A stretch of 64,000 nt of DNA, taken from the NCBI GenBank assembly GCA_037481775.1, contig JBBFKZ010000001.1, positions 151,150 to 215,149 of the forward strand, in the 5' to 3' direction. Below, in pieces: positions 5,031 to 43,591 of this stretch (positions within the stretch are counted from its first letter, which is position 1; each line of letters starts with the position of its first letter). The notes under the pieces were generated by a model. That model searched no databases. It was not told the DNA's origin and worked only from the letters and a program-made list of their open reading frames with translations. The position numbers were made by a program, and so were the translations under genes. The stretch comes from Candidatus Bathyarchaeia archaeon (lineage in GTDB: Archaea > Thermoproteota > Bathyarchaeia > Bathyarchaeales > Bathycorpusculaceae).

Positions 5031-5236
5031 CTTTTAGAATAGAATGGTCAGCCAAATAATATGAACCTTTTGCAAATCAGGAAATAGCGGAAGAAAGAGG
5101 CAAAAAGGAATGCGCGTGTCTGTAAGGTTTTAGCAACGTGCATAACCACGTGTTTTTAGACGTAATATTCTTAAGTTGGAAACATAGGTTAAGTGCGCCA
5201 AAAAATTGTTTCCTTGAGAAAAGGAGAAGGCTCTTA

Positions 5237-10366: not shown

Positions 10367-11521
10367 ATGTATTGGATCGGCGCTTTAAATCAGGGTTGGG
10401 TATTGCCAAAAGTTACCATATCCCTAATCAAGTGTGATATCGGCTCGTTGGCTGGACACCATATTGTTCCCAAACCCATATTTGACATCGCGGAGAAAAG
10501 CCTCAAAAAAGCAACAGAAAACCGCATCATAAACAGTTTTTACGTTTTCAACGCAGGCGACGATCTCGAACTGCTCATGGTGCATGAAAAAGGCGAACAA
10601 AACGCGGAAATTCACGGGCTCGCTTGGGAAACATTTAAGGAGTGCGCCAACAAAGCTGCACAGTTAAAGCTCTACGCTGCAGGCCAAGATCTTTTGAAAA
10701 ACGCTTTCAGCGGGAACATTCGAGGGATGGGCCCGGGCGTTGCAGAAATGGAGATAGAAGAACGAACTTCTGATCCAATCGTGGTTTTCGCAGCTGACAA
10801 AACATCTGCTGGCTCATTTAACTATCCTCTCTTTCGTATATTCGCCGATCCAATGAACACTGCTGGCCTCGTTATTGATCCAAACATGATTTGTGGCTTC
10901 AAATTCGAAGTTATAGACACGTTGGAAAACAAATCTATAATCCTTAAATGCCCCGAAGAAATTTATGATTTGCTGGCTCTAATTGGCACAGTAGGACGTT
11001 ATGTAATCTCTCGCGTCTGGAGAGCAAGTGACAACTTGATCTGCGCTGCAAGCAGCGTAAGTAAGCTTTCATTAATAGCTGGAAAATACGTGGGCAAAGA
11101 TGATCCAGTAATGATTACTCGGGCGCAGCATGGCCTTCCTGCTGTCGGCGAAATCTTGGCGCCTTTTATGCATAGCTACTTTGTGCAAGGTTGGATGCGA
11201 GGTAGCCACTGGGGGCCAATAATGCCCGTAGGAATGAAATCATCAAAATGTACTGCTTTTGATGGTCCACCAAGAATAGTTGCCTTAGGCTTTCAAGTGG
11301 CGAATGGTCGAATTTCATGCGATGATGAAGGGAACCCGCTTATCGCGGACTTGTTCGATGATCCAGCGTTTTCATTGGCAAGGCGTGAGGCTATGCGTAA
11401 CGCTTGTATGTTACGGAATATGGGTGAATTTGAGCCTGCACGTTTAAGTGCTGAAGACATGGAGTACACGACAATACAGCAAGTTCTGGAAAAACTCGGG
11501 AAGCGCTTCAAACCTCTTTGA
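10367..11521 (+). CDS. fbp: Fructose-1,6-bisphosphate aldolase/phosphatase (class V FBPase)
   Basis: 'KVTISLIKCDIGSLAGHH' matches the N-terminal signature of the archaeal bifunctional enzyme, and the length is right. TTG at 10403 ('MPKVTISLIK') is a likely alternative start. Confidence 0.85.
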   Translation: MYWIGALNQGWVLPKVTISLIKCDIGSLAGHHIVPKPIFDIAEKSLKKATENRIINSFYVFNAGDDLELLMVHEKGEQNAEIHGLAWETFKECANKAAQLKLYAAGQDLLKNAFSGNIRGMGPGVAEMEIEERTSDPIVVFAADKTSAGSFNYPLFRIFADPMNTAGLVIDPNMICGFKFEVIDTLENKSIILKCPEEIYDLLALIGTVGRYVISRVWRASDNLICAASSVSKLSLIAGKYVGKDDPVMITRAQHGLPAVGEILAPFMHSYFVQGWMRGSHWGPIMPVGMKSSKCTAFDGPPRIVALGFQVANGRISCDDEGNPLIADLFDDPAFSLARREAMRNACMLRNMGEFEPARLSAEDMEYTTIQQVLEKLGKRFKPL

Positions 11522-11534
11522 AATTCCTGTGGAA

Positions 11535-12098
11535 TTAAGTCGACGGAACAGTGTGTTTGGCAAAGTTAGCTAATACTGTGCATCTGTTCTCGACAATCGC
11601 GTGGAGCCTTCTGCGCAGTTCTTCCCCAACTTTTTCCTTTGTTTTTAGCAAAGCTACTTTTTTCGAAAGCTCTACATCGCCTATGCCAGTGAACCAAGCT
11701 TCAAAATCTCCACGGCTCAAATGAAAATTTATGGATTCTTCATTAACTTTCAAAATTTTATCGCAAAAATCTTGAAGGCTGTCCGCAGAGATGTTTAACG
11801 GCTTCCCTATACCCGCATAAAAGTGAAATGATTTATCTGGCGGCATCTGCGATAATAGTGCTTGCGCCTTCTCTTTGTCAATCTCGGGCACACCAAGTGC
11901 TTTTTTGCCTTTTTCCGTTATGACGTATAGCCCTTTTGCAGGTGATGCGATGTATCCCATGCGCGTGAGCCATATTATGTGCATCATGACTGACGGAAAA
12001 TCTTTCCCCAATTCCCTTGCTATGGACGCTGGTTTTTCTGGTTTATCAAGTAACAGCATAATCTCTAGTATCTCACATCTAACAGGCGACAAGCTCAT
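11535..12098 (-). CDS. Winged-helix protein with C-terminal domain of unknown function (possibly DUF5752-like)
   Basis: Track ORF runs to 12146. ATG at 12098 ('MSLSPVRCEILEIM') has GGTG 11 nt upstream. wHTH 'PASIARELGKDFPSVMMHIIWLTRMGYI...YVITEKGKKAL'. C-terminal 'FHFYAGIGKPLNISADSLQDFCDKI...FHLSRGDFEAWF'. Divergent from the glycosyltransferase gene. Confidence 0.5.
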   Translation of the reverse strand: MSLSPVRCEILEIMLLLDKPEKPASIARELGKDFPSVMMHIIWLTRMGYIASPAKGLYVITEKGKKALGVPEIDKEKAQALLSQMPPDKSFHFYAGIGKPLNISADSLQDFCDKILKVNEESINFHLSRGDFEAWFTGIGDVELSKKVALLKTKEKVGEELRRRLHAIVENRCTVLANFAKHTVPST

Positions 12099-12231
12099 AA
12101 CTACAATACACCTTAGAGGTATATGTACATACAAACTAATCAACATTTCTTAATGTTTGCTGATTGAAGATAAGCAAAAGCTTTAGTATGGTGCTTTATA
12201 ATGCTACAATGGAAAACGGTGAGCGCAAGGA

Positions 12232-13482
12232 ATGAAGATTGCCGTGCTGGTTTACGAGTATCCGCCTAAAATTGTTGGTGGATTAGGAACATATGCTGCT
12301 GAAATAACACGTAAATTTGTACTAATGGACCATGATGTAACTGTTTTTACGATGAATGATGACTCGGGCTCTTTGCCTACACGAGAAATTTGGCGCGGCA
12401 TAGAAATTCATCGACCGCTACACCTTGATGTTTCTGACTCATTACCCGATGTAATTGCTGAGGACATTAAAAAATGGGGCAGAGGTTTAACTTTATTCGG
12501 CAAGCTTCTTGTTTATAATTATCTAGCAGCGTCCAAGCTTATCAACGAGCTAATAAAAAAGGAAGGAATGAAGTACGATATCGTTGTGGCTCATGACTGG
12601 CTTTCAGTTATGGGCGGCGTCACAGTTAAAAAAGAAAGTGGCATGCCTTTAGCTTTTCATGTCCACTCAACTGAGAAAGGGCGAACTTTGGGGAATGGCT
12701 CAAGTGTGGTAAGTAACATTGAACTGCGAGGCGCTAAGATGGCCAACATGATTGTCACAGTGTCTTATGCCATGAAGGATGAGCTAGTACAACTTGGGTT
12801 TCCATCAGAAAAAATTCACGTCTGCTATAATGGAGTTGATCCGCAAAAATATGATCCTGCAAGCGTACCTGCAGAACAAGTCCGAAAAATCAGGGAACGT
12901 TACGGCATTAGAGATGGCGACATAATGATTCTTTTCATAGGAAGGCTTGTAGGCATAAAGGGTGTTGACAAGTTGATTATGGCTATGCCGCATGTCTTGT
13001 CCAAAATCCCCAACTCAAAGCTAGTAATAGTAGGCGTAGGCGACCTGCAAGAGTATCTGGTGAATTTAACCAGAACCATGCGGCTAGATGAACACGTAAA
13101 ATTCTGTTTCGACTTCATTACTGAAGAAGAACGTATCGCACATTATGCTGCTTGCGACGTGGCGGTTTTCCCAAGCCATTATGAGCCTTTCGGCATTGTT
13201 GCTCTTGAAGCAATGAGCATGGAGAAACCTGTTGTTGTGGGTGCTGCTGGCGTCAGTGGAATGCGCGAAATAGTAGTTTGCAGTGGTGAAGAGCAATGCG
13301 GATACCATATAAATCCAAATAATCCCAACGACATTGCATGGGGAATAACAAGCGCTCTGGAAAATGCGGGAAAACGGGAATGGCTTGGAAAGAACGGCAG
13401 GAAAAGAGTCTTAAGCGAGTTTACTTGGAATAAAATTGCTGAAAAAACCATTGAACTGTACGAGATGGTGCTTAAGCGCTGA
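12232..13482 (+). CDS. GT-B glycosyltransferase, archaeal glycogen-synthase-like (GT4/GT5)
   Basis: 416 aa. 'MKIAVLVYEYPPKIVGGLGTYAAE' N-terminus and 'FPSHYEPFGIVALEAMSMEKPVV' E-x7-E region. Confidence 0.7.
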   Translation: MKIAVLVYEYPPKIVGGLGTYAAEITRKFVLMDHDVTVFTMNDDSGSLPTREIWRGIEIHRPLHLDVSDSLPDVIAEDIKKWGRGLTLFGKLLVYNYLAASKLINELIKKEGMKYDIVVAHDWLSVMGGVTVKKESGMPLAFHVHSTEKGRTLGNGSSVVSNIELRGAKMANMIVTVSYAMKDELVQLGFPSEKIHVCYNGVDPQKYDPASVPAEQVRKIRERYGIRDGDIMILFIGRLVGIKGVDKLIMAMPHVLSKIPNSKLVIVGVGDLQEYLVNLTRTMRLDEHVKFCFDFITEEERIAHYAACDVAVFPSHYEPFGIVALEAMSMEKPVVVGAAGVSGMREIVVCSGEEQCGYHINPNNPNDIAWGITSALENAGKREWLGKNGRKRVLSEFTWNKIAEKTIELYEMVLKR

Positions 13483-13505
13483 ATGAGCTGGCGTATGGTG
13501 AAGCT

Positions 13506-14120
13506 TTGGACGCCAATTCGGACTTAAAGCGGAAGGCTGCTCAAGAAGCAGCAGCCCTACTATATTTTGGTATTGAAAAAGAGTATAAGCAAGCTAAATT
13601 GAAAGCTGCAAAAACTTTAGGCGTCCATTTTCTGCCATCCAACCTTGAAGTTGCTGTAGCGCTTGACAACATAGCTGAAGCGCTTGAAGGACCTGTTAGA
13701 AAAGAGCGGTTAATCCATATGCGCAGTGAAGCCCTAAAAGTAATGGAGGCCCTCAAGGGCTATCAGCCTCTCTTGATTGGCAGTGTTTGGCGCGGCACTA
13801 TCCGCAGAGAAAGCGACATCGACATAGCTGTGTACCATGATGCCCCAGATGAAGTTCTAAGAGTTCTCAAGAGTAATGGCATGAAGATTGTTAAAACTGA
13901 ACGCGTCACCACAACTAAAAAAGGCAAACCTGAAGAGTCCTTTCACATATACGTTGAGACTTCAAGTAAGCAAAGAATTGAACTGGTTGTTAGAAAATCG
14001 GAAGAGGTAAACCGCAAAAGAAAATGTGAGATTTTTGGAGATGAACTTAAAGGCCTTAACATCCAAGAGTTGAAGCGTTTACTCAAAGAAAATCCTGTGG
14101 AAAAATTTATCCCGACATGA
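13506..14120 (+). CDS. Pol-beta superfamily nucleotidyltransferase-domain protein
   Basis: 204 aa. 'GSVWRGTIRRESDIDIAVY' fits the GS-x9-12-DxD minimal NTase motif. TTG start. Confidence 0.55.
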   Translation: MDANSDLKRKAAQEAAALLYFGIEKEYKQAKLKAAKTLGVHFLPSNLEVAVALDNIAEALEGPVRKERLIHMRSEALKVMEALKGYQPLLIGSVWRGTIRRESDIDIAVYHDAPDEVLRVLKSNGMKIVKTERVTTTKKGKPEESFHIYVETSSKQRIELVVRKSEEVNRKRKCEIFGDELKGLNIQELKRLLKENPVEKFIPT

Positions 14121-14216
14121 CATTGTTGTGTTTCATTTTCTGCTACTTGTGTTGCTGCTTTAGCGTTTTCCTTGAAAAAGGCACATAAGTGCGTGTTGCT
14201 ATAGGTATCTGTAGCA

Positions 14217-14588
14217 TTGTTGCTCTTGAGGGTTAAACCTGTGGAGATTGATAAAAAGTCGTTTAAAAAGATGTTTCCGCATTTGGCAAAAGAACTTGAA
14301 GGCGGAGAAAGCAAGATTGCAATAGGCGCTGTAAGAACCGATTCAGATGTCGCTGAAAAATCGATGGATGACAAGTTTCGCAATTATAACCCTACTGTCA
14401 TCGACTTTATACGGCGTTGCGATACAGAAGAACAAGCAGAAGCAATAATCGCGTATTTGGAAAAAAGGGGCGAGTTAACTCCGGAATATGCTGAAAAACT
14501 GCGAAAGCAGCTGAAGCAGGAAGGCGTACGAAGCTTCGGTTCCAAAAAGGAAGAGAATTACTATTTTAAGCAGGGTGGGCTCTGCTAA
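14217..14588 (+). CDS. Conserved archaeal hypothetical protein (DUF2095-like by recollection)
   Basis: 123 aa. 'FKKMFPHLAKELEGG...NPTVIDFIRRCDTEEQAEAIIAYLEKRGELTPEYAEKLRKQL'. Ends in 'KQGGLC'. Start uncertain. Confidence 0.4.
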   Translation: MLLLRVKPVEIDKKSFKKMFPHLAKELEGGESKIAIGAVRTDSDVAEKSMDDKFRNYNPTVIDFIRRCDTEEQAEAIIAYLEKRGELTPEYAEKLRKQLKQEGVRSFGSKKEENYYFKQGGLC

Positions 14589-14702
14589 ACGTACTCATAT
14601 CATGGGGGAAATCCATTATGACAAAAAAGCGCTTAGAGTTATTGCAAATGATTTAATAGTTTTTCTGACGCAGATAGAAAAGGCGGAGGTAAGCAGACAC
14701 TC

Positions 14703-15755
14703 ATGGGTAAGGTGGATAAAGATGCTTTTGCTTCTGAATTTTACAGTCGACAGATAATCCTAAAGGAGTTAGGCTGGATCGGGCAGCGCAAACTTGCTAA
14801 GGCAAAAGTCGCCGTTGTAGGCGTAGGCGGTTTAGGCACGGCTTCCTCGCTTTACTTGGCACTTGCCGGTGTTGGACATCTACGTTTGATAGACCAAGAT
14901 ACTGTGGAAATGCCTAATCTGCACCGTCAGATCTTATACAGTATGGACGATCTGCATTACCCTAAGGTGGAAGTGGCTGCTAAACGGTTAATGAAGCTTA
15001 ACCCGCTCTTGAAGGCAGAGCCAATATCGGAGAATGTGAACCCAAGTAATGTTGAAAGGCTTTTGTCTGGCGTGGACCTCGTCGTCGACGGCTTGGATAA
15101 CATGTTTACCCGTTATTTACTCAACCGCGCATGCATCAAACTGGGCATTCCTTATGTTTTCGGCGCAGCCATAGGCATAGAAGGCAACCTCTCAGTTTTC
15201 ATGCCTCCCGAAACTGGCTGTTTAGAATGCTTGTTGCCGAGCCTGTCTGATGCCGACTTGCTGACGTGTGACACGCGCGGTGTTCTAGGCGCCACCCCTG
15301 GAATAATCGGTACCATGCAAGCCATGGAAGCAATAAAAATATTAACGGGCATGGGCTCGCCTCTTAAGGGTAAGCTTCTGATTTGCGACTTTAACGATAT
15401 GTATTTCACCACGGTTGAAACATCAAAAGCTGCTAACTGCCCCGCTTGTCAAGGCACTTTGGAACAGCTGGCGCAGCATGCAAAGCTGGTTTGGCTTTGC
15501 GGTCGGGACACTGTAAATGTTAACCCTGAGAAGCCGTTAAAGCTGAACCTTAACGAAGTTTACGAGAAAGTGAGGCAAAAATTCAACGTTCGCCTGAAGT
15601 CTCATCTCGCCATAATTTTCGATTACGAAAATTTGGAGGTAAGTTTGTTCAACGGTGGGCGCATGCTTATAAAAAATGTTAAAGACGAAAAGGCAGCGCT
15701 GAAAACGTATCAAAAAATCCTTGAAAAACTGGATATAACCCAATACACGTCGTAG
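14703..15755 (+). CDS. ThiF/MoeB/UbaA-family E1-like adenylyltransferase with about 100-aa C-terminal extension
   Basis: 350 aa. 'VAVVGVGGLGTASSLYLALAGVGHLRLIDQDTVEMPNLHRQ' nucleotide-binding motif. Zinc CxxC pairs 'GCLEC' and 'CPAC'. Confidence 0.8.
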   Translation: MGKVDKDAFASEFYSRQIILKELGWIGQRKLAKAKVAVVGVGGLGTASSLYLALAGVGHLRLIDQDTVEMPNLHRQILYSMDDLHYPKVEVAAKRLMKLNPLLKAEPISENVNPSNVERLLSGVDLVVDGLDNMFTRYLLNRACIKLGIPYVFGAAIGIEGNLSVFMPPETGCLECLLPSLSDADLLTCDTRGVLGATPGIIGTMQAMEAIKILTGMGSPLKGKLLICDFNDMYFTTVETSKAANCPACQGTLEQLAQHAKLVWLCGRDTVNVNPEKPLKLNLNEVYEKVRQKFNVRLKSHLAIIFDYENLEVSLFNGGRMLIKNVKDEKAALKTYQKILEKLDITQYTS

Positions 15756-15872
15756 GGGCGCGGTTGCCTAACTTTTGTGTTAAATCTCTGCTTCAGGAAT
15801 GAGAAATAAACTATAGAATAGCCATATAAAGAAAAGGAACGCGTCAACGGCGCGATTGCTGTAAAGTGGTGT

Positions 15873-16055
15873 TTACTCTATTACCTGAATTGCGCCTTGC
15901 GGGCATTGGGCTTCGCATGCACGGCAGACTAGGCATTCGCTGACGTTAACTGGGACGGATTTGCCGTCTTTTATCTCATAGACGCTGACCGGGCAAGTGT
16001 TAACGCAGGTTTCGCATCCGTTGCATTTGTCATTATCAACTACTATCTTTACCAT
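15873..16055 (-). CDS. 2x[4Fe-4S] ferredoxin
   Basis: 60 aa with 'CNGCETCVNTCP' and 'CLVCRACEAQCP'. Confidence 0.85.
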   Translation of the reverse strand: MVKIVVDNDKCNGCETCVNTCPVSVYEIKDGKSVPVNVSECLVCRACEAQCPQGAIQVIE

Positions 16056-16117
16056 TTCACATACCTCTTGTAAGTTTGATTCAAACGCTACAAGTAAAAT
16101 AAAAGTGTTTAGGTCGA

Positions 16118-17851
16118 TTAGCGAATTTCTTCACGTAGTCTAAGAAGAATTCCGTTGATTGTTGCCTCAGCTTTTTCTTTCCGCCGCTGATAATCCGCAA
16201 TTGCTTTCTTGTACTCTTCCAACGGAAGTTCTCCTCTACTGTGGCGAACCTCCACTGTTCTCAAATTAGCTGAGATTTCAACAAGTTCTGCTTCTGCAAT
16301 ATCCAGCTGCCTAACCGAATCAGCATAAACCCCGCCGGCGCTGCGGAAAACAGCCTTTAACTCAGCTATGTTCTTGTTTAGCGTGTCTATGCGGGTTTCC
16401 AGAGTTTTCCGTTGCACCTTGTATCGGCGCCTTGGAATCTTGCCCTTTTGCGCTCTTTCTTCAAGAAGCTTCAGTTCCAAGACTAACTTGTTTTTCTCTT
16501 CATATGCATCATTGAAGGCTCTTAATTGATCTGGACTGAGAATTACAGAAGCTTTTGGTGTTGCCACTCTTGGCGGTGCCGCAGCTTTGGGTCTTATTTT
16601 CCAGACAGCTAGAATCATGGCTCCAACCGCTGCTAAAGTCCACATCCACATAGTAGGCCTAAAAGACGCCCAAAGTGGATTATAATCATATTTGATCTGC
16701 ACAGTGTCTTCAGAAGGAACAGCGCTCTCTATGTTGCTGACTCCTTCTCTGTTAATTGTCAGCGTTTCTTGAAAGGCTTCTCTGGTTAAACTTGAGGATG
16801 GCTCTATTTCTGAGTACTGTGGCTCTATAAACTTCGCTCCTTCAGGGAGAACAAAGTTAACGGTGACCTTGTCAATGTAGCAATTGAGATTGGGGAATAG
16901 ATCAAAGTTCAAAGTGAAATGCGTTTGCTCAGAAGATACCTGGGGCAAAGTATAATCCGCTGATAGGAATGTTGCTGTGCCGCTGTTTAGAGGCGAGGCT
17001 AACGTAGCAGTGACAAAGGACGCGTTTGCATCATCGGTTTGAGTGCTGACGATCAAGTTTCTGCCGAATTCGTCACTTACAGCAATGTTTGAAGCCGCAG
17101 GCGGTAAGCCTATCTTAATAGAACTAATGCTACTTGTCGAGTTATTTACGATGCGATATTTGTCCGAGACTGTTATGCCGCCGGCGGCGTTTATCGTAAC
17201 TTGGCGAGTTAGCTGTTTCACGTTAATTATTTGAATGCTGCCGGAGCTTAAGGAAAAAGTTGCTGTTGCTGGCGAATAAGTGAATGCAGCTAAATTGTGC
17301 TTAACAAAGCTCGCTGTTTGAACTTCGCCGTCATTTTTTGTTATGGTAATATTTTGGGCATCTTCAGGTAAAACAAGAGTAACCTCACAGCTGGCCGCAT
17401 CCTTCACGAGACTGGGGTAGGCTGGAAAATCCAGCGTAAAATTGTTATAATTTTGAGTGATAAGGCTGTTCGAGAGAATGAATGCTACGGTAAAAACTTG
17501 AGGCGCGCCCTGTGGAAAACTTATTTTTGCACCGTAAAAGCCACTTTGGCCTTCCAACTGCACGCCAAGGCTCATGGGAAAAACATTGTTGTCGTCATAG
17601 GCTATGCCTTTGAGAATGTACGCGCCGTATTTGTATGGGACGCCTATTAGGAAGTCGCCTGTTAATTGTCCAGTTAATCGCACTTTGTCCCTTATAATTA
17701 CGTGGCCAGAGTACAAGACTTCAACTTGGTGATCAATCTGTTGTATGGTGTATGTGGCTTCTTGAGACAAAACAGCTTGCGTGTTAAATGAAGACAATAG
17801 AACCGCAAGTGAAAAAATCATCAGCACTATTGTGGTAGTAGTTCTCTTCAC
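16118..17851 (-). CDS. Type I membrane protein, ribophorin I (OST1)-like architecture
   Basis: 577 aa. Signal peptide 'MKRTTTTIVLMIFSLAVLLSSFNTQA'. About 380-aa extracytoplasmic beta-rich domain containing 'VLPEGAKFIE'. Single TM 'MWMWTLAAVGAMILAVW'. About 150-aa charged coiled-coil cytoplasmic tail. Confidence 0.5.
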   Translation of the reverse strand: MKRTTTTIVLMIFSLAVLLSSFNTQAVLSQEATYTIQQIDHQVEVLYSGHVIIRDKVRLTGQLTGDFLIGVPYKYGAYILKGIAYDDNNVFPMSLGVQLEGQSGFYGAKISFPQGAPQVFTVAFILSNSLITQNYNNFTLDFPAYPSLVKDAASCEVTLVLPEDAQNITITKNDGEVQTASFVKHNLAAFTYSPATATFSLSSGSIQIINVKQLTRQVTINAAGGITVSDKYRIVNNSTSSISSIKIGLPPAASNIAVSDEFGRNLIVSTQTDDANASFVTATLASPLNSGTATFLSADYTLPQVSSEQTHFTLNFDLFPNLNCYIDKVTVNFVLPEGAKFIEPQYSEIEPSSSLTREAFQETLTINREGVSNIESAVPSEDTVQIKYDYNPLWASFRPTMWMWTLAAVGAMILAVWKIRPKAAAPPRVATPKASVILSPDQLRAFNDAYEEKNKLVLELKLLEERAQKGKIPRRRYKVQRKTLETRIDTLNKNIAELKAVFRSAGGVYADSVRQLDIAEAELVEISANLRTVEVRHSRGELPLEEYKKAIADYQRRKEKAEATINGILLRLREEIR

Positions 17852-18057
17852 TTGAATTCACCGAGTTTAGGTTTCTCTATGTTATTAGTAGCTTATTTAT
17901 TTACTTTTAGAAAACGCGGGGTCTAATTGGTTATTGAATTTCGTTACGGCTACGGTGGCGTCCCATGCTTAGAGTGGTCGATGCTATCCGTGAATAATTC
18001 GCTTTACATAAATTTTGATTTTGTTAATTAAAGAACAAGTTATCATGGTGCAGATTA

Positions 18058-22704: not shown

Positions 22705-24141
22705 GTGTACGCGGCAATTGTCCGAGAAAAAGAAACCCAAAAGCTGCGCTACGAAGTTATAGAGCCTACTCTCCAACCAAACGAGGAAAAGTATCTTCGT
22801 GAAATAAAGAATTTTCTGATGGATGAAGTAGACGTAAACTTGAAAGAAATTGAAAACAAAGACAAAGCAGAAAACTTTCTAAGACAAAAAATCCGGGGGA
22901 TCATAAAAAAGTACCGCATGAAAATCCCAGCAGAAGCGGTTGACAAACTCACCTATTACATAATAAGAGATTCCTTAGGCTACGGAAAAATTGACCCATT
23001 AATGAAAGATCCTTTAATTGAAGATATCTCTGCAGACGGCACAAACATTCCGCTCTACGTGTGGCATCGCTTCTACGAGTCGCTGCCAACAAACATAATG
23101 TTCACAAACGTCGCTGAACTGGATGCCTTCATAATTCGCCTTGCATATCTAGCTGGCAAAAGCATTTCTCTAGCTACACCAATTCTTGACGCGACTCTTC
23201 CAGAAGGAAGCCGCATACAGCTCACCTACGGCAGCGAGGTCACCCGAAGAGGCTCAACCTTTACTATAAGGCGCTTCAAAGCGGATCCGCTGACAATCTC
23301 GGATCTCATAGCTTTCAACACCCTTTCCTCGGAGATGGCTGCTTACCTGTGGTTCATCATAGAGAACCGAGCTTCAGTCTTGGTGGCAGGCGGGGTAGCC
23401 AGCGGCAAGACCACTCTGCTCAACTGCCTATCCATGTTCATAAAACCTGAAATGAAAATTGTAAGTGTCGAAGACACTCAGGAGCTTAATCTCCCACATG
23501 AAAACTGGATACCCTCCGTAGTGCGCACTGGCTTCAAAGGTGATGACAAGCAAAGCGGCGACATCACCCTCTTCGACTTGCTGAAGGCGGCGGTTCGGCA
23601 GAGGCCTGACTACATTATTGTCGGTGAAGTGCGTGGTGAAGAAGCCTACACGCTGTTCCAAGCCATGGCCACAGGGCACTTGGGCATGTCCACCATTCAT
23701 GCTGAATCAGTCGACGCCGTAATTAAGAGGCTTGAATCCGAGCCGATGAATATTCCTAAGTCGCTTATTGCGATGACTAACGTCATTTTAGTTATGGAAA
23801 GAACCGAAGTTAAAGGGAGACCTGCAAGGCGAGTGAGCGTTGCATCTGAAGTAAAAGGAATTAATGCAGAGACAGATGAGATTCTAACTGAAAATGTGTT
23901 CCGCTGGAGCCCTCAGTTTGACAAGTTCACTTCAGGCGACAGCGTCCTCTTGGAGAAGCACATGAAGAAGCTGGGTTTAACCGAGGAAGATATACAACGT
24001 GAATTTAAAGCTAGGAAGACTGTTCTGGAGTGGATGGTAAAGGAGGGGATCCGACACTACAGTGACGTGGCCAAAGTGATCAGAGAATACTATGCTAACC
24101 CGAACCGTGTCTTCCAAAAGGCGAGAGTGGGGTTCAAATGA
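22705..24141 (+). CDS. Type IV filament secretion ATPase (archaeal FlaI/PilB/TadA family); N-terminus probably out of frame upstream
   Basis: Walker A 'GGVASGKTTLLN', 'DYIIVGEVRGEEA', 'TGHLGMSTIHA'. The intact ORF starts at GTG 22705. The same frame is open back to 22507 and encodes 'AVFQEVYALQEPYV' with no start codon. ATG 22563 lies in another frame. Confidence 0.85.
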   Translation: MYAAIVREKETQKLRYEVIEPTLQPNEEKYLREIKNFLMDEVDVNLKEIENKDKAENFLRQKIRGIIKKYRMKIPAEAVDKLTYYIIRDSLGYGKIDPLMKDPLIEDISADGTNIPLYVWHRFYESLPTNIMFTNVAELDAFIIRLAYLAGKSISLATPILDATLPEGSRIQLTYGSEVTRRGSTFTIRRFKADPLTISDLIAFNTLSSEMAAYLWFIIENRASVLVAGGVASGKTTLLNCLSMFIKPEMKIVSVEDTQELNLPHENWIPSVVRTGFKGDDKQSGDITLFDLLKAAVRQRPDYIIVGEVRGEEAYTLFQAMATGHLGMSTIHAESVDAVIKRLESEPMNIPKSLIAMTNVILVMERTEVKGRPARRVSVASEVKGINAETDEILTENVFRWSPQFDKFTSGDSVLLEKHMKKLGLTEEDIQREFKARKTVLEWMVKEGIRHYSDVAKVIREYYANPNRVFQKARVGFK

Positions 24142-25133
24142 GAAAAAAGCTCATGAAGAAACTCGCTACTGCCAAGGAACATTTAGCAGCGCTTAAAGGG
24201 TTAGATGAAAGTTCAAAACAAACACAAAAATCACTCTTGAAAGAACCTGTTGGGTTTTTGGAAAAGCCGTTATCTATAGCTTATCAGCTAATGGGCAGTA
24301 AAGCTGAGCGGTTTATGCCCCTATTCAAAGATTTAGACCAAACATTGCAAAAAGCAGGCTTAAAAATTAACTTCAAAGCATATATAAGCTTAACAATTTT
24401 ATCGTCGCTATTGATCGCCTTGGCAGTAGCGGCAGTGTTGCCTCTATTGTTATTTTCTATTTGCGCCGTGCCAATAAGCTCAGCGCTCTTATTCGGTTTA
24501 GGCGGCGGTCTACTCGCATGTTTTCTCTCGATTATTGGTTTTTACCTCTATCCAGTTTATCATGCGGATAAGCATAAACGAGAATTGGATGACGAGTTGC
24601 CCTTTACGACTGGCTACATGGCTATCCTGTCAAGTGCAGCTGTTCCTCCTGAAAAAATTTTTTATTCGCTCTCAAACTTGAATGTGCCTTTAGCTGTTTC
24701 CGCAGAAGCCAAAGAAGTTGCAAAAGGCATCAACTTGTTCGGTTTAGACGTGATATCCGCCTTAGAAAGGGTGTCAAAACGCACACCTTCTGAAAAACTG
24801 CGAGGCATCATAGAGGGAATAATATCTACAATACACACGGGCGGCAACTTAAGTGCGTTTCTGAGAGGAAAATTTAAGGTCGCAATGAACCTGAAAAAAG
24901 TGGGACTCAAAAAGTACGCCGACAATTTGGCAATTCTGTCGGAAATTTATGTAGCCTTACTCTTGACTGGCCCGTTGCTTCTAGTCATTATGGTGTCGGT
25001 TATGTCGGTGATGGGCGGCAGCATAGGCTTACTCAGCCCCGACATGCTACTGGGGCTTTTAACTTATTTGGTGATTCCAGTTTGCGCTGTCGTATTCCTC
25101 CTAATCTTGGACTCAACTTCGCCAAAATGGTAG
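24138..25133 (+). CDS. Type IV filament platform protein, N-terminal half (T2SSF domain; FlaJ/TadB-C-like)
   Basis: 331 aa and polytopic. Cytoplasmic T2SSF-like segment 'LPFTTGYMAILSSAAVPPEKIFYSL...GGNLSAFL'. 4-nt overlap with the ATPase gene. Ends at TAG 25131..25133, in frame with the next ORF. Confidence 0.75.
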   Translation: MRKKLMKKLATAKEHLAALKGLDESSKQTQKSLLKEPVGFLEKPLSIAYQLMGSKAERFMPLFKDLDQTLQKAGLKINFKAYISLTILSSLLIALAVAAVLPLLLFSICAVPISSALLFGLGGGLLACFLSIIGFYLYPVYHADKHKRELDDELPFTTGYMAILSSAAVPPEKIFYSLSNLNVPLAVSAEAKEVAKGINLFGLDVISALERVSKRTPSEKLRGIIEGIISTIHTGGNLSAFLRGKFKVAMNLKKVGLKKYADNLAILSEIYVALLLTGPLLLVIMVSVMSVMGGSIGLLSPDMLLGLLTYLVIPVCAVVFLLILDSTSPKW

Positions 25134-25139
25134 ATAAAA

Positions 25140-25955
25140 ATGCCCAAGATAGAGCGTAAAACGAAAAAACTTGCGATCATGATTTCAGCTCTGATAGCTA
25201 CCGCAATAGTCCTTGCTGGCTATTTCACTGTTGGCCTCAGCCCCGCGTTAGATGACTTCGTGTTTTTCGGTTTTCTCATCGTTATTTCGCCTATCGCGCT
25301 CTTGAATTATCTTGATTACAGGTGGAGAAAAGCTGTTGACGAGCGTTTGCCCGACTTATTCCGAAGCATAGTTCAAGCTCAAGAGACAGGCATGACACTT
25401 CACAGCGCTTTAGAAGAAGCAGCAAAAAGAGACTATGGTCCGCTAACTCCTGAACTGAAAAAGATGACTGCACAGATTTCTTGGGGTGCAAGTTTCGAGG
25501 AGGCACTTTCAGCCTTTGGAAAACGCGTGGGCACAGTGCTAACCCAGCGGACGGTACCCTTGATAATTGAAGCTAGCCGTTCAGGAGGGCAAGCAGAGAA
25601 AATTTTCGGGCCTATGGGCAAATTTATCCAGAGCACTCTTCTGCTTGAGAAAGAACGCAGAACGCAGACCCGCCCATACATAGCCATAATCTACGTGGCG
25701 CTTTTCGTGTTTCTATTCACGATAGTGATTCTTTTCAAAACCTTTTTCACAAATGTCGACGGCACAGCCTTGTTTTCCATGTCAACGGTTTCACTTATTA
25801 ATTTGCAGCGAATTTTCATGCATTTAACGATAATTCAAGGATTTTTCGGCGGTCTCGTGGCGGGCAAAATGGGTGAAGGCTCAATAACCGCTGGCTTAAA
25901 GCACAGTCTCATAATGATGCTGCTGGGCTATGTTGCATTGAATTTCTTTTTGTGA
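25140..25955 (+). CDS. Type IV filament platform protein, C-terminal half (T2SSF domain; FlaJ/TadC-like)
   Basis: 271 aa. 'LPDLFRSIVQAQETGMTLHSALEEAA...SWGASFEEALSAF...IIEASRSGG' T2SSF-like domain followed by TM helices. Confidence 0.75.
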   Translation: MPKIERKTKKLAIMISALIATAIVLAGYFTVGLSPALDDFVFFGFLIVISPIALLNYLDYRWRKAVDERLPDLFRSIVQAQETGMTLHSALEEAAKRDYGPLTPELKKMTAQISWGASFEEALSAFGKRVGTVLTQRTVPLIIEASRSGGQAEKIFGPMGKFIQSTLLLEKERRTQTRPYIAIIYVALFVFLFTIVILFKTFFTNVDGTALFSMSTVSLINLQRIFMHLTIIQGFFGGLVAGKMGEGSITAGLKHSLIMMLLGYVALNFFL

Positions 25956-26386
25956 GGATGAAGAAAATGGCTAAGGCAGCTAAACGGTTTTTGCAGGATA
26001 AGCGGGCCATAACACCCGTTCTCAGTCATCTCTTGCTCACAGTCGTGGCAGTGGCGGTTATGGCCATTGCCACTTCAGCCACGTTCGTGATAACCACCAA
26101 TCTCAGGGAGACTATGGGCGAACGCGTCTCAGTCGAAGACGTCTGGTTTAACAGTTCCACTGGTACAGTGAACGTTTACCTACGTAACGTGGGTAAAACT
26201 GCCATCCAAGTCGTGGCCGTTTACGTGAACCACGTAGGCAGCCCATTCAACTCGCCTTTTCGTTTAGAGCTAAATCAGCATGGTTGGCTAAGCGTTAATT
26301 GCACATGGAATCCTGGAGACACTTACTATATAGACGTAGTCACAACTAGGGGGACTCATGTTGCAGGTTATTACAAGGCGCCTTAA
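25952..26386 (+). CDS. Archaeal type IV pilin-like protein (class III signal peptide)
   Basis: Basic leader, then 'KRAITPVLSHLLLTVVAVAVMAIATSATFVI', then a small beta domain ('VNVYLRNVGKTAIQVVAVYVNH'). Start is ambiguous: GTG 25952, ATG 25958, or ATG 25967, which has GAGG 8 nt upstream. Confidence 0.7.
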   Translation: MRMKKMAKAAKRFLQDKRAITPVLSHLLLTVVAVAVMAIATSATFVITTNLRETMGERVSVEDVWFNSSTGTVNVYLRNVGKTAIQVVAVYVNHVGSPFNSPFRLELNQHGWLSVNCTWNPGDTYYIDVVTTRGTHVAGYYKAP

Positions 26387-29036
26387 ACTGTTTAAACATG
26401 GAAAACGCGGCATAAGCACCGTCATAGTCGTCATGCTAAGCCTAGTCCTCATAGTAGTCATAGTTGGCAACGTAGTTCTCTGGAGCTATCAGATGAACCA
26501 GTTAGACATGGAAAGAATGCAGGAAACTCTGAGCCTCATTAATGCAACGCGCATAACCCGTTCCTCATGGAGCATCGCCCAAAGAGAGTACATTACCAGC
26601 GCTGGTAGTAAGCTAAGCGGAACGTTCGTAGATACAACTGCTGCCGATAGTCTCGCTGAAACTTTTAGAGAAGAACTTGAAGGAATTTATAGTTATAATC
26701 CTTCGAGTTATACGCTTGGCGGTGCAACAAGCTATGTATTAGGCGATATTTCAGACCTTGCGTTATCAGATGGAGTATGCATGAATTTCAGAAGTTACAT
26801 GTCCAGTTCTCCCGCTAACGACAAGACTGACGCCTTCGTCGCTTACAGGGATTCTACAACATCACTCAATACACCTAAATGGCGGGTATGGGATGGCGAA
26901 AGCTTAACATGGAACTCGCAGAGCGAGTTGCCAACAGCTAACAGCTCTGTCAGGTGGGTTCGCGTCGCATATTCGCCGCTGGAATCCAGAAGCTATGAAA
27001 AAATTGTCGTCACGCTGTCGGATGACGGCTACTTAGATGCTTATGTATGGAATGGAGCAGCATGGAATGTTACAAGCAACATTGCCTTTCCCGGCACCTC
27101 CGCGAACGCGTATAGATGTTTTGATGTGGCTTACGAAAAAACAAGTGGCAGAGCACTACTGGTTTACTCAAGAGGCACGACAACAAACGAGATAGGCTAC
27201 AGAAGATGGACGCCGGAAACAGGCTGGGGCCCTGAGCAACTTCTGGATTTACCGTACACGTCAGGCATAGTGCGTTGGATCAGTCTAGCGAGTAGCCCTG
27301 GAGCACGTGCAGGAACAAGCGATGATAACGAGATAGCCATGATTTATCTAGACGCGAACAACGATGTTCACGGCTACGTCTGGACTGGTTCAGCATGGAG
27401 CCTTATGGGTGCAACAGCAATCTGGGATGCCACAGCAGCAACGTCAACACGCGAGTGCATAGCCGTTGCCTACGAGCAGACCACAGGCGAAGCCATGTTC
27501 ATCTGGGCGGATTCTGGAAGCAATCGTTTCTACTATAGAACATGGAATGGCGCAACCTTGAGCGCGGCAACTCTTCTAACTATAACAGCCACAGGAGGCG
27601 CTGGTTACTGGGTAACGCTGAAAGCTGATCCCGCATCCGATGACATGCTTTTCCTCGTAATTGATAGTGGAGCAGACCTCAACACGGCTTACTGGAACGG
27701 CAGTACATGGACAGTTCACACAGAACACGACGACACAGTCGACACAAATGCTAGGCGTTGCGCCGATTTCGCTTGGGAGCCCTCAGGCGGAAAAGGCTTA
27801 CTAGTATGGGGAACAACCACTGGACAAATAGCATATAAGACGTTCGTTGCGCCAAACGCATGGGGCACGCAGCAAAACATTGCAATGGGCGGGGCAAGTA
27901 ACATTCATCCTTGGGTGCAGTTGAGAACTAATCCTCGAAATGTCCCTGACGACGTATTGATATTAGGCTTGGTCCTTGAGGGAACCGCTTATGATTTGGG
28001 CGCTATAAGCTGGGACGGGGCAACCTTAACCGTTCTAGGCTCAAGCGTTATCTCAGCAAACACCACCGTAATTACATATGAGTGCTTCGAGTTGGAGTTC
28101 GCTAATTTTGGCGTGCCAACGTTTACGTGCGAAGTGGAGTTTTCAGGAAAATCGGATGTCAAAAACTGGACCCAACTTCTCTGGGCAGCAGCTTTATCCT
28201 TCACAGTACCAGATGTAACAACAACGTTTCAATTATATAATTATAATTTGGGTCAGTATCCAACAAGTGGAAGTGGATACATAACCGACACCATCGGGCA
28301 AACTACGGTTCCAAAAAACCAGACTATACCAGTTTCCTCAACGGATTTTCGAGATGCCAACGGGAACTGGAAAATGAAAATAACTGGAACCAAAATCACC
28401 TATACGCAGTTTGAAATGCACGTTGACTGGATAGAATTTAAACCGACACTGTTTGATGTTTACCGCCTTAATGTCGTCAATAATTTTGCAGTGGATTTAT
28501 CAACTTATCCGCGGGAACACATTCAGGGTTTAGAGTTGCTAATTAAGTATAAAGTCTCCGAAAGCTCGGAAAGATGGTTCTTAAAAGCGTATAACTGGCG
28601 CGCCGCTGCTTTCAGTGATGTAGGCTTCAACGTTACAGCTGGAAGCCAGCCGATACTTGGTGAATGGACTGAGTACGCTATAGCTGTTACAGACGATTGG
28701 GCTGATTACGTAAACGAAGAGGGCCTGGTTCGTGTAGAGCTTTTTGATGAAGGCACAGGTGCAAATCAGACTGTGTTGGAAATCGACTTCTTTGCAGTAA
28801 GAGTCATAATTGATGCCACACGCATAGACGTGAAAAACTCGAGTCCAATAAGCGTTCGCATCGTAGCAGTTTGGGTCATAAACTCTACAATGCATCAGCG
28901 CTACGATGTAGACATGTTGCTTAACGCTGGAGAAGCGGCAACGTATATCCGCGCGGACATAAAAATGCCGCAAGATACTTTTTTGGCAAAGGTTGTTACA
29001 GAAAGGGGCAATGTAGCCGTTTTCTCAAAAGACTAA
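26358..29036 (+). CDS. Giant pilin-headed surface protein: class III signal peptide, 8-repeat beta-propeller-like module, two beta-sandwich-like modules, pilin-like C-terminal domain
   Basis: 892 aa. N-terminus 'KHGKRGISTVIVVMLSLVLIVVIVGNVVLW'. Eight 'Y..W.G..W'-type repeats spaced about 52-56 aa apart (residues about 158-581). The C-terminal 74 aa are paralogous to the small pilin's globular domain. Confidence 0.7.
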   Translation: MLQVITRRLKLFKHGKRGISTVIVVMLSLVLIVVIVGNVVLWSYQMNQLDMERMQETLSLINATRITRSSWSIAQREYITSAGSKLSGTFVDTTAADSLAETFREELEGIYSYNPSSYTLGGATSYVLGDISDLALSDGVCMNFRSYMSSSPANDKTDAFVAYRDSTTSLNTPKWRVWDGESLTWNSQSELPTANSSVRWVRVAYSPLESRSYEKIVVTLSDDGYLDAYVWNGAAWNVTSNIAFPGTSANAYRCFDVAYEKTSGRALLVYSRGTTTNEIGYRRWTPETGWGPEQLLDLPYTSGIVRWISLASSPGARAGTSDDNEIAMIYLDANNDVHGYVWTGSAWSLMGATAIWDATAATSTRECIAVAYEQTTGEAMFIWADSGSNRFYYRTWNGATLSAATLLTITATGGAGYWVTLKADPASDDMLFLVIDSGADLNTAYWNGSTWTVHTEHDDTVDTNARRCADFAWEPSGGKGLLVWGTTTGQIAYKTFVAPNAWGTQQNIAMGGASNIHPWVQLRTNPRNVPDDVLILGLVLEGTAYDLGAISWDGATLTVLGSSVISANTTVITYECFELEFANFGVPTFTCEVEFSGKSDVKNWTQLLWAAALSFTVPDVTTTFQLYNYNLGQYPTSGSGYITDTIGQTTVPKNQTIPVSSTDFRDANGNWKMKITGTKITYTQFEMHVDWIEFKPTLFDVYRLNVVNNFAVDLSTYPREHIQGLELLIKYKVSESSERWFLKAYNWRAAAFSDVGFNVTAGSQPILGEWTEYAIAVTDDWADYVNEEGLVRVELFDEGTGANQTVLEIDFFAVRVIIDATRIDVKNSSPISVRIVAVWVINSTMHQRYDVDMLLNAGEAATYIRADIKMPQDTFLAKVVTERGNVAVFSKD

Positions 29037-37425: not shown

Positions 37426-37724
37426 TTCTGTCGCCTCTGCGTCTGTATAGCGAGACGTGTATATAAGAATGTCGGAGCAAAACAATTGTTTCAACGAGAG
37501 CACAGCTGTTTTTTCTGAAATTCTGTCGGCTAAGAAGTTGATTGTTAAGGCATAACACTTTTGGTTTAAAGAAACTGCTCCTGCATTGGGCTGATATCTG
37601 TGTGCATTCGTGCGCTGCGCGCTCTGTAAGTGTATAAGCGGTTAGCGCTAAAATTTAATAGTCCCTTAGATTTAGCGGTACATCTATATCTCCGCGTGTA
37701 CTCTGTGTTAGCAAATATTCAACG

Positions 37725-42180: not shown

Positions 42181-42203
42181 GTGTTCTCCAAAAGTTTACT
42201 TAT

Positions 42204-43571: not shown

Positions 43572-43591
43572 TCTTGAGTCTCCCGTTCTGT

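What the first reader, a model, noticed from the sequence alone, without database searches (positions are those of the whole stretch)
16118..17851. Ribophorin I (OST1)-like membrane protein in an archaeon
The architecture is signal peptide, about 380-aa lumenal/extracellular beta-rich domain, one TM helix and a cytoplasmic coiled-coil tail of about 150 aa. This mirrors eukaryotic ribophorin I, a subunit of the oligosaccharyltransferase complex. A short stretch just before the TM, 'VTVNFVLPEGAKFIEP...VQIKYDYNPL', closely resembles what I recall of the ribophorin I segment 'LTVKIILPEGAKNIEI...VVHYTFNKVL' at the same position relative to the membrane. If real, this is a eukaryotic-signature OST accessory subunit. 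It would imply a multi-subunit AglB/STT3 complex in this lineage. No AglB gene is in the window.
Basis: partly seen in the sequence, partly recalled or inferred. Interest (0 to 1): 0.65.

Follow-up and report, generated by a model that had tools for sequence, protein, structure and literature searches.

The report
Ribophorin I (OST1) homologue in Bathyarchaeia
This gene from a Bathyarchaeia archaeon encodes a true full-length relative of ribophorin I, a helper subunit of the eukaryotic protein-glycosylation machine, including the tail that binds ribosomes in humans; such archaeal relatives are already described, so this is a solid but unsurprising find.

Summary
The ORF at 16118..17851 (-), 577 aa, is real and has the reported layout: an N-terminal signal-like segment, a ~370-aa beta-rich ectodomain, one TM helix and a ~158-aa cytosolic helical tail. 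Four separate tests support homology to ribophorin I/OST1.

- **Pfam:** PF04597 scores 41.4 bits against a cutoff of 25.
- **Family profile:** it aligns end to end with human RPN1 (E 4e-27), yeast Ost1 (5e-13) and the crystallised Lokiarchaeon MK-D1 OST1 tail (1e-18).
- **Foldseek:** the top 8 PDB hits are all RPN1/Ost1 chains (E 3e-26 to 1e-13).
- **Tail:** it superposes on 8WHN (TM 0.80, rmsd 2.8 A).

The tail is a four-helix bundle, not a plain coiled coil, and it is the most conserved and most basic part of the protein. The lineage is Bathyarchaeia (TACK), and the gene is found across that class.

No AglB/STT3, OST3/6, Sec61 or TRAP gene lies in the window or within 10 kb of the gene in 80 related loci. 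The multi-subunit OST complex therefore remains an inference.

OST1 homologues in Asgard archaea have been published since 2017, and their presence in TACK is stated in PMC11417166. Verdict: interpretation supported; new member of a known kind; modest interest.

The parts
16118..17851 (-). Complete CDS of the OST1/ribophorin I homologue (577 aa, GTG start, stop included)
   Evidence: ORF list. Identical gene call in public assemblies. Pfam PF04597 at 41.4 bits against GA 25. Full-length conservation in >1000 homologues.
17765..17851 (-). N-terminal signal-peptide-like segment, aa 1-29 (MKR + hydrophobic core + ...AVLSQ)
   Evidence: Kyte-Doolittle window aa 4-28 scores 1.93. Helix 2-20 in the AF2 model. 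The cleavage site was not predicted with a dedicated tool and is inferred.
16661..17764 (-). Extracellular (lumen-equivalent) beta-rich region, aa 30-397, with two beta-sandwich domains (~30-205 and ~206-340) and a low-confidence membrane-proximal part (341-397)
   Evidence: AF2 with MSA gives pLDDT 70-90 for aa 30-340. Foldseek top 8 hits are RPN1/Ost1 chains. The profile aligns with the RPN1 lumenal domain.
16832..16849 (-). LPEGAK motif (aa 335-340), the stretch most conserved with eukaryotic RPN1/Ost1
   Evidence: P336, E337, G338 and A339 are invariant in 62 close homologues. P336 and G338 are >=90% conserved in 69 diverse members. The motif aligns with LPEGAK of human RPN1 and LPEGAE of yeast Ost1.
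16595..16660 (-). Single transmembrane helix, aa ~398-419 (RPTMWMWTLAAVGAMILAVWKI)
   Evidence: Highest hydropathy window outside the N-terminus, with 1 K/R before and 4 K/R after. Helix 403-416 in the model. Aligned with the RPN1 TM segment. W394 is the only invariant column across 69 diverse members.
16124..16534 (-). Cytosolic four-helix bundle, aa 440-576, homologous to the ribosome-binding C-terminal domain of RPN1 / MK-D1 OST1
   Evidence: Four helices at pLDDT 80-90. Foldseek against 8WHN gives TM 0.80, rmsd 2.8 A. phmmer against 8whn_A gives E 1.4e-7 and the profile gives 1.4e-18. The tail-only profile scores 75.2 bits on the MK-D1 tail and 19.2 bits on the human tail, with 0/1000 shuffles reaching either. 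It is the most conserved and most basic region.
17858..17862 (-). GGTGA Shine-Dalgarno-like motif 6 nt upstream of the GTG start
   Evidence: Read directly from the upstream sequence printed. Its function is inferred.
17892..17909 (-). A/T-rich TATA-box-like stretch (TAAAAGTAAATAAATAAG) ~45 nt upstream of the start; putative promoter
   Evidence: Read from the sequence. Its spacing to the start codon matches that of the conserved ferredoxin promoter. Inference only.

Best explanation
The gene encodes the Bathyarchaeial orthologue-level homologue of OST1/ribophorin I, a type I membrane protein of the cytoplasmic membrane.

Shown here: it shares with mammalian RPN1 the whole domain order. That order is a signal sequence, two tandem beta-sandwich domains outside the cell (topologically equivalent to the ER lumen), the LPEGAK-containing membrane-proximal segment, one TM helix, and a basic cytosolic four-helix bundle.

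Inferred: it works as a non-catalytic accessory of the archaeal oligosaccharyltransferase AglB (STT3). The TM helix and ectodomain would sit beside AglB and handle or retain nascent acceptor polypeptides. The conserved basic four-helix bundle would dock the translating ribosome, placing N-glycosylation next to the SecYEG channel so that it can act co-translationally. This is what RPN1 does in the mammalian OST-A translocon and what was proposed for Lokiarchaeon MK-D1 OST1.

Confidence in homology and family membership is about 0.97. The confidence value given here (0.55) is for the functional mechanism.
For: Homology:
- PF04597 scores E 1.3e-10, 41.4 bits against GA 25, and 55 of 69 diverse family members hit it, best E 2e-24.
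- The family profile (69 sequences, 22-65% identical) hits human RPN1 at E 4.2e-27 over profile 14-570 / chain 10-604, yeast Ost1 at 4.8e-13, and the MK-D1 OST1 tail at 1.4e-18. The next hit is tropomyosin at 0.053.
- The AF2 model (pLDDT 72.6) has RPN1/Ost1 chains as all of its top 8 Foldseek PDB hits (3.1e-26 to 1.0e-13). The next fold is integrin at 9e-7.

Tail:
- TM 0.80 and rmsd 2.8 A to the 8WHN crystal structure.
- The tail-only profile scores 19.2 bits on the human RPN1 tail (shuffle maximum 10.1) and 75.2 bits on the MK-D1 tail (shuffle maximum 11.5).
- The tail is the most constrained region, with 41% median identity against 28% for the ectodomain. Its net charge has a median of +7, and K/R is conserved at positions 453, 469, 471, 474, 478, 481, 493 and 499. 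This fits a conserved polyanionic partner such as rRNA.

Conservation: the gene occurs across Bathyarchaeia with the full-length architecture kept down to 25% identity, which indicates a housekeeping role.
Against: Nothing links the gene to AglB. No STT3, OST3/6, Ost4/5-like, Sec61 or TRAP gene is in the 64-kb window. No WWD[YFW]G-bearing long ORF lies within 10 kb of the gene in 80 Bathyarchaeia loci.

The conserved neighbours are a 2x[4Fe-4S] ferredoxin, DUF2095, a nucleotidyltransferase and a GT4 enzyme whose best match is a glycogen-synthase subfamily. None of these indicates N-glycosylation.

The membrane-proximal region and TM (aa 343-435) are modelled at low confidence. Sequons in the ectodomain are not enriched, with 5 observed against 4.25 expected.

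No archaeal OST has been shown biochemically to contain OST1. A glycoproteomic study of an Asgard archaeon reported no clear eukaryote-like glycobiology (PMC11284389, highlights).

The shuffle control preserves composition but not helical periodicity.
Confidence: 0.55

Rival explanations
1. It is a true OST1 homologue that does not work with AglB in this lineage. Instead it acts as a stand-alone membrane ribosome receptor or translocon accessory. The tail would tether ribosomes at SecYEG, and the ectodomain would act as a holdase for emerging secretory proteins. On this view the association with the glycosyltransferase arose later, in the Asgard/eukaryote line.
For: The tail, not the ectodomain, is the most conserved part, and it is the part shown to bind ribosomes in MK-D1 and human (PMC11417166). 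There is no genomic linkage to AglB or glycosylation genes in 80 loci. In this window the gene sits next to prefoldin beta, and NAC lies elsewhere in the window. Both are nascent-chain factors, but that adjacency holds only in the closest relatives.
Against: In every system where OST1 has been studied structurally it is an integral OST subunit; all Foldseek hits come from OST complexes. The LPEGAK and membrane-proximal segments that pack within OST are the ectodomain parts best conserved with eukaryotes. Lack of gene linkage is uninformative, because archaeal aglB is often unlinked from other agl genes (general knowledge).
Confidence: 0.22
2. It is a generic archaeal cell-surface beta-sandwich protein (adhesin or S-layer-associated) with a coiled-coil cytoplasmic anchor, for example CdvA- or SMC-like. 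On this view the resemblance to ribophorin I is a fold or composition coincidence.
For: There are weak sub-threshold hits of the tail to CdvA (16.6 bits, GA 30), SMC and other coiled-coil models. Second-tier Foldseek hits are generic beta-sandwich proteins such as integrin alpha and the M1 aminopeptidase N-domain.
Against: All coiled-coil hits fall below their curated cutoffs, whereas PF04597 is above its cutoff. The profile-to-RPN1 alignment is collinear over all domains at E 4e-27. RPN1/Ost1 hits beat every other fold by at least 7 orders of magnitude. The tail is a compact four-helix bundle that superposes on 8WHN (TM 0.80), not an extended coiled coil.
Confidence: 0.02
3. It was acquired by Bathyarchaeia from an Asgard archaeon by horizontal transfer rather than inherited. 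On this view it says nothing about the antiquity of OST1 in TACK.
For: The tail is much closer to the Lokiarchaeal MK-D1 tail (75 bits) than to the human one (19 bits). No phylogeny was made here.
Against: The gene is present across Bathyarchaeia with within-class divergence down to ~25% identity. Its local gene order is conserved, with ferredoxin downstream in 76/79 loci and DUF2095 upstream in 45/77. This pattern fits presence in the class ancestor. Greater similarity to another archaeon than to human is expected under vertical descent as well.
Confidence: 0.15

Closest known systems
Human ribophorin I (RPN1; PDB 6S7O chain E, 8B6L chain O), subunit of OST-A/OST-B
   Same: Same domain order and nearly the same length (577 vs 607 aa): signal peptide, two lumenal beta-sandwich domains, LPEGAK segment, one TM helix and a cytosolic four-helix bundle. 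The profile alignment is collinear end to end at E 4.2e-27. Foldseek gives E 3.1e-26 over 620 columns.
   Different: Only 13-15% sequence identity. The tail similarity to human is weak (19 bits). The protein sits in the cytoplasmic membrane of a cell without an ER. The partners known in human cells (STT3A/B, TMEM258, DC2/KCP2, eL28 on the ribosome; from general knowledge) are unverified or absent here.
OST1 of the Lokiarchaeon 'Ca. Prometheoarchaeum syntrophicum' MK-D1 (WP_147663064.1; cytosolic domain PDB 8WHN; PMC11417166)
   Same: An archaeal, plasma-membrane OST1 with the RPN1-type cytosolic four-helix bundle. Tail comparisons give E 1.4e-18 (profile), 22% identity, TM 0.80 and rmsd 2.8 A. 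The basic loop between helices 1 and 2 is similar (GKIPRRRYKVQR vs RRKRIQKKVYTK).
   Different: Different superphylum (Bathyarchaeia/TACK rather than Asgard). Only the MK-D1 tail has been shown to bind (human) ribosomes, and nothing is tested for this protein. MK-D1 also encodes OST3/6 and TRAP subunits (PMC11417166), which could not be checked here.
Yeast Ost1p (PDB 6C26 chain 1, 6EZN chain A)
   Same: Lumenal two-domain fold and the LPEGAE / Y-D-Y membrane-proximal segment. The profile gives E 4.8e-13 and Foldseek gives E 1e-13 to 3e-16.
   Different: Yeast Ost1 (476 aa) ends shortly after the TM helix and lacks the cytosolic four-helix bundle. The Bathyarchaeial protein is of the longer RPN1/MK-D1 type.

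Membership tests
Ribophorin I / OST1 (Pfam PF04597) | Significant match to the curated family model above its gathering threshold | tested here: met
   41.4 bits against GA 25, E 1.3e-10. 55 of 69 diverse relatives also match, best E 2e-24. PF04597 is precomputed for most homologues.
Ribophorin I / OST1 (Pfam PF04597) | Collinear full-length homology to experimentally defined OST1 subunits (human RPN1, yeast Ost1) | tested here: met
   Family profile against PDB: 6s7o_E E 4.2e-27 (profile 14-570 to chain 10-604) and 6c26_1 E 4.8e-13.
Ribophorin I / OST1 (Pfam PF04597) | Type I membrane topology: N-terminal signal sequence, large extracytoplasmic domain, single TM helix, C-terminus in the cytosol | tested here: met
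   Hydropathy and charge distribution and helices at aa 2-20 and 403-416 in the AF2 model. No dedicated signal-peptide or topology predictor was available, so this rests on sequence features.
Ribophorin I / OST1 (Pfam PF04597) | Fold of the extracytoplasmic part: two tandem beta-sandwich domains as in Ost1/RPN1 structures | tested here: met
   The Foldseek top 8 PDB hits are all RPN1/Ost1 chains, probability 1.00, E 3.1e-26 to 1.0e-13, with the next fold at 9e-7. Model pLDDT is 70-90 over aa 30-340.
RPN1-type OST1 (metazoan RPN1 / Asgard OST1 subtype) | Cytosolic C-terminal four-helix bundle | tested here: met
   Four helices at pLDDT 80-90. 8WHN gives TM 0.80, rmsd 2.8 A over 141 columns. Tail-only profile scores exceed all 1000 shuffles for both the human and the MK-D1 tails.
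RPN1-type OST1 (metazoan RPN1 / Asgard OST1 subtype) | The tail binds the large ribosomal subunit | not testable with these tools
   Only indirect support: the tail is the most conserved region and is net basic, with a conserved K/R cluster. Binding has been shown for the MK-D1 and human tails only (PMC11417166).
Oligosaccharyltransferase complex subunit | Physical association with the catalytic subunit STT3/AglB (and Ost5/TMEM258, Ost4) | not testable with these tools
   No multimer prediction or biochemistry was available.
Oligosaccharyltransferase complex subunit | Genomic co-occurrence or linkage with aglB/STT3 and other OST subunits | tested here: inconclusive
   None is present in the 64-kb window or within +-10 kb in 80 loci. 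The rest of the genome could not be searched. AglB is near-universal in archaea (PMC4973528).
CdvA-like coiled-coil (PF18822) / SMC-type coiled coil | Match above the curated threshold | tested here: not met
   CdvA scores 16.6 bits against GA 30. SMC_prok_B scores 18.5 bits against a cutoff of 567. The tail is a compact four-helix bundle.

The most novel reading that the evidence does not exclude
A ribosome-docking, RPN1-type OST1 is ancestral to Bathyarchaeia and was therefore present before the TACK/Asgard split. This would mean that co-translational coupling of ribosome, SecYEG and AglB through OST1 is an old archaeal invention rather than an Asgard/eukaryote 'signature'. It would also mean that Bathyarchaeia run a multi-subunit OST at the cell membrane.
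Probability: 0.35. Interest if true: 0.55.

Novelty: new member of a known kind. Interest (0 to 1): 0.3.

Why it matters
OST1/ribophorin I is usually cited as a eukaryotic signature protein of Asgard archaea. This window shows a complete RPN1-type version, including the ribosome-binding four-helix bundle that even yeast lacks. It is a conserved gene found across Bathyarchaeia, an abundant TACK lineage, where GenBank records still label it 'hypothetical protein'.

This supports the one-line statement in the literature that OST1 extends to TACK. It pushes the origin of this accessory subunit, and possibly of ribosome-coupled N-glycosylation, below the Asgard node. It also offers a large, diverse sequence family (450 clusters at 50% identity) for evolutionary and structural work. 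It does not reveal a new kind of system.

Tried and rejected
- **Single-sequence AF2:** it gave pLDDT ~30 for the ectodomain and was not used for fold search. The MSA-based model was used instead.
- **Genome-contig scan with A2:** The closer alignment A1 was used, which limits the recovered loci to Bathyarchaeia-like sequences.
- **Cluster look-up:** it returned no taxon names for distant members. A homologue search with the 25%-identical P0268 showed that it too is from Bathyarchaeia. I could not name the lineages of the ~300 weaker representative hits.
- **Gene-neighbourhood search:** I looked for a functional link to glycosylation. The conserved upstream GT4 looked promising, but its best NCBIfam match is a glycogen-synthase subfamily below cutoff, and it sits next to FBPase, so I do not count it as support.
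- **Ferredoxin operon idea:** the tightly conserved downstream ferredoxin looked like an operon partner. However, a conserved BRE/TATA-like element and an SD sequence in the 62-nt spacer indicate its own promoter.
- **Ost4/Ost5-like small ORFs:** a search of intergenic gaps found nothing near the gene.
- **Sequon enrichment:** the ectodomain shows none.
- **Bacterial promoter/terminator scan:** it is uninformative for an archaeon.
- **First tail-profile script:** it failed on an option clash and was rerun.
Full report
**1. The observation.** The window has an ORF at 16118..17851 on the minus strand (GTG start, 577 aa), as reported. Public assemblies call the same gene with the same boundaries. 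A GGTGA Shine-Dalgarno-like motif lies 6 nt upstream of the GTG, and an A/T-rich TATA-like stretch lies about 45 nt upstream (sequence).

The reported layout holds in each part:
- MKR followed by a hydrophobic segment, aa 4-28.
- A beta-rich region, aa ~30-397.
- One more hydrophobic helix, aa ~399-419, with 1 K/R in the 20 residues before it and 4 in the 20 after it.
- A 158-aa helical tail.

HMMER aligns VTVNFVLPEGAKFIEP with human RPN1 LTVKIILPEGAKNIEI, and VQIKYDYNPLW with VVHYTFNKVLM.

**2. Sequence homology.** Pfam Ribophorin_I (PF04597) matches at E 1.3e-10, 41.4 bits, above the curated cutoff of 25. All other Pfam and NCBIfam hits are sub-threshold coiled-coil noise on the tail.

The single sequence already finds two relevant PDB chains. 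One is 8whn_A, 'Ribophorin 1 superfamily protein' (E 1.4e-7, tail). The other is human RPN1, 6s7o_E (E 0.003).

An exhaustive search of 1.84 billion cluster representatives found 450 clusters at E<=1e-3. These are full-length and collinear down to about 25% identity. A profile of 69 diverse full-length members (alignment A2) gave these PDB results:
- Human RPN1: E 4.2e-27, collinear from profile position 14 to 570 against chain residues 10-604.
- MK-D1 OST1 tail: E 1.4e-18.
- Yeast Ost1: E 4.8e-13.
- Next best hit: tropomyosin at E 0.053.

Of the 69 members, 55 individually hit PF04597.

**3. Structure.** The single-sequence AF2 model was unusable for the ectodomain. With a 62-sequence alignment the model reached mean pLDDT 72.6, and 70-90 across aa 30-340 and 440-577.

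Foldseek against the PDB put eight RPN1/Ost1 chains from human OST-A/OST-B, the Sec61-TRAP-OST-A translocon and yeast OST at ranks 1-8 (E 3.1e-26 to 1.0e-13). The next fold, integrin alpha, came at 9e-7. The low global TM score (~0.4) and large rmsd reflect the relative placement of flexibly linked domains, since the alignments span 458-620 columns.

The tail superposes on the 1.95-A crystal structure of the MK-D1 OST1 cytoplasmic domain (8WHN) with TM 0.80 (target-normalised) and rmsd 2.8 A over 141 columns. The tail is therefore a four-helix bundle, not an extended coiled coil.

A tail-only profile scores 75.2 bits on the MK-D1 tail and 19.2 bits on the human RPN1 tail. In each case, 1000 composition-preserving shuffles reach at most 11.5 and 10.1 bits. 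The cytosolic domain is thus homologous in its own right, not merely carried along by the ectodomain.

**4. Lineage and conservation.** The closest named homologues (79-84% identity) come from Candidatus Bathyarchaeia/Bathyarchaeota MAGs, and all are labelled 'hypothetical protein'. A scan of one genome per species returned 137 confirmed loci. Of the 80 kept, 78 are titled Bathyarchaeia/Bathyarchaeota or its older name MCG, and the other two are probably mis-binned contigs. A member only 25% identical to the window protein is also from Bathyarchaeia.

The window's other genes fit a TACK archaeon. They include TackOD1, archaeal-type ThrRS editing domain, FBPase class V, prefoldin beta, aTrm56, TFE-alpha and S6e.

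Across the 69 diverse members the tail is the most constrained region. Its median identity to the window protein is 41%, against 28% for the ectodomain. The tail is net basic (median +7), with K/R conserved in at least 80% of members at positions 453, 469, 471, 474, 478, 481, 493, 499, 556, 557 and 573.

**5. Genomic context.** No ORF in the 64 kb hits STT3/AglB, OST3/6, Sec61 or TRAP models. No long ORF with a WWD[YFW]G motif exists in the window or within 10 kb of the gene in the 80 loci. No small membrane ORF flanks the gene.

Two conserved linkages were found:
- **Downstream:** a 60-aa 2x[4Fe-4S] ferredoxin lies on the same strand in 76 of 79 loci.
- **Upstream:** DUF2095 lies directly upstream in 45 of 77 loci, as part of an FBPase-(HTH)-GT4-nucleotidyltransferase-DUF2095 block.

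In this window and its closest relatives the OST1-ferredoxin pair is inverted relative to that block, and a ThiF/MoeB gene sits between them.

Neither linkage informs function. The ferredoxin has its own strongly conserved BRE/TATA-like element (ACCTAAAC[A/G]CTTTTAT) and a GAGGT SD sequence in the spacer. The GT4's best match is a glycogen-synthase subfamily, below cutoff.

**6. How it most likely works.**
- **Shown:** membership of the OST1/ribophorin I family, with every domain of mammalian RPN1 present.
- **From established knowledge and PMC11417166:** in eukaryotes OST1 is an integral non-catalytic OST subunit. The RPN1 four-helix bundle contacts the ribosome in the OST-A translocon. The MK-D1 tail has the same fold and pulls down ribosomes.
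- **Inferred here:** the protein sits in the cytoplasmic membrane beside AglB, its ectodomain handles nascent acceptor chains, and its conserved basic tail docks the translating ribosome. This would place N-glycosylation at the SecYEG exit.

I put about 0.97 on homology and about 0.55 on this mechanism. The main rival (0.22) is that the protein is a ribosome or translocon accessory that works without AglB in this lineage. The 'unrelated surface protein' rival is effectively excluded (0.02). Horizontal acquisition from Asgard archaea is possible, but the class-wide distribution, deep divergence and conserved synteny do not favour it (0.15).

**7. Comparison with what is known.** A 2016 survey found no prokaryotic homologues of the non-catalytic OST subunits (PMC4973528). 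Ost1 and Ost3 were later reported in Asgard archaea, and further subunits followed (PMC10307638). [quoted passage not shown] I found no paper that describes the Bathyarchaeial family specifically.

Pfam already tags most of these proteins. The kind is therefore known, and this is a new, well-supported member from a lineage mentioned only in passing.

**8. Verdict.** The step from 'OST1 homologue' to 'multi-subunit OST complex' remains an untested inference. Novelty: new member of a known kind. Interest: 0.3.

The most novel reading still open is that ribosome-coupled OST1 predates the TACK/Asgard split, so that it is not an Asgard/eukaryote signature (probability about 0.35, interest if true 0.55).

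Noticed in passing
window 15873..16055 (-), and 76 of 79 related loci (e.g. L007:11807-11986): A 60-aa 2x[4Fe-4S] ferredoxin ORF lies 62 nt downstream of the OST1-like gene on the same strand. The pairing is kept in 76/79 Bathyarchaeia loci (median gap 71 nt). The ferredoxin is far more conserved than OST1 (median 83% vs 48% identity). The spacer carries a conserved BRE/TATA-like element ACCTAAAC[A/G]CTTTTAT and a GAGGT SD, so it probably has its own promoter. Why the adjacency is so stable is unexplained.
   Followed up: partly
window 10367..17851; loci L003, L007, L024, L058: In most Bathyarchaeia the order is FBPase-(HTH/DUF5752)-GT4-nucleotidyltransferase-DUF2095-OST1-ferredoxin, with OST1 on the same strand as the block. 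In this window and its closest relatives (L001-L004, L081) the OST1-ferredoxin pair is inverted relative to the block, a ThiF/MoeB-like E1 gene (14703..15755) lies between them, and prefoldin beta becomes the upstream neighbour.
   Followed up: partly
window 12232..13482 (+): A very highly conserved GT4 glycosyltransferase (median 80% identity across loci where OST1 is ~48%). Its best NCBIfam match is the glgA_Coryne glycogen-synthase subfamily, below cutoff (187 vs 302 bits), and a weaker hit is Agl16. Its substrate is unknown, and it is linked to OST1 in 57 of 80 loci.
   Followed up: partly
window 39881..44680 (-): A four-gene nucleotide-sugar cluster: GFO/IDH/MocA oxidoreductase, UDP-glucose/GDP-mannose dehydrogenase family, phosphoglucomutase/phosphomannomutase, and a sugar-1-phosphate nucleotidyltransferase with a hexapeptide domain. 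It is a possible supplier of glycan precursors, about 22 kb from OST1.
   Followed up: no
window 59900..63067 (+): A second sugar-related group at the window end: a PylC-like ATP-grasp protein, DUF354 (GT-B-like) and an NAD-dependent epimerase/dehydratase.
   Followed up: no
window 22705..30016: A type IV pilus/archaellum-like assembly locus: a T2SSE ATPase with a PilB3_C domain, two T2SSF membrane proteins, a 144-aa ORF with no Pfam hit, and an 892-aa protein with only a GH114-associated domain hit. A TackOD1 output-domain protein follows on the opposite strand.
   Followed up: no
window 5138..6649 (+): A 503-aa protein made largely of coiled coil (FlaC_arch, DUF1664, DUF7310 and many other sub-threshold coiled-coil hits) with a KOW-like stretch near the C-terminus. 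Function unknown.
   Followed up: no
window 35971..37503 (-): A fused formaldehyde-activating enzyme (Fae) and OMPdecase/HUMPS-family (hexulose-phosphate synthase-like) protein, typical of the archaeal ribulose monophosphate pathway.
   Followed up: no
loci L036 (DATGZD010000055.1) and L037 (DATJPJ010000107.1): Two contigs with typical Bathyarchaeia OST1 genes (47% identity; the ferredoxin was confirmed downstream in L037, not checked in L036) are deposited under 'Candidatus Sulfotelmatobacter sp.' (a bacterium) and 'Candidatus Nanoarchaeia'. They are probably binning errors in those MAGs.
   Followed up: no
window 37725..37925 (+): An unannotated 66-aa ORF in a 410-nt intergenic gap with two strongly hydrophobic helices (a hairpin membrane peptide). 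It has no Pfam hit. It is too far (20 kb) from OST1 to suggest an Ost5-like partner.
   Followed up: partly
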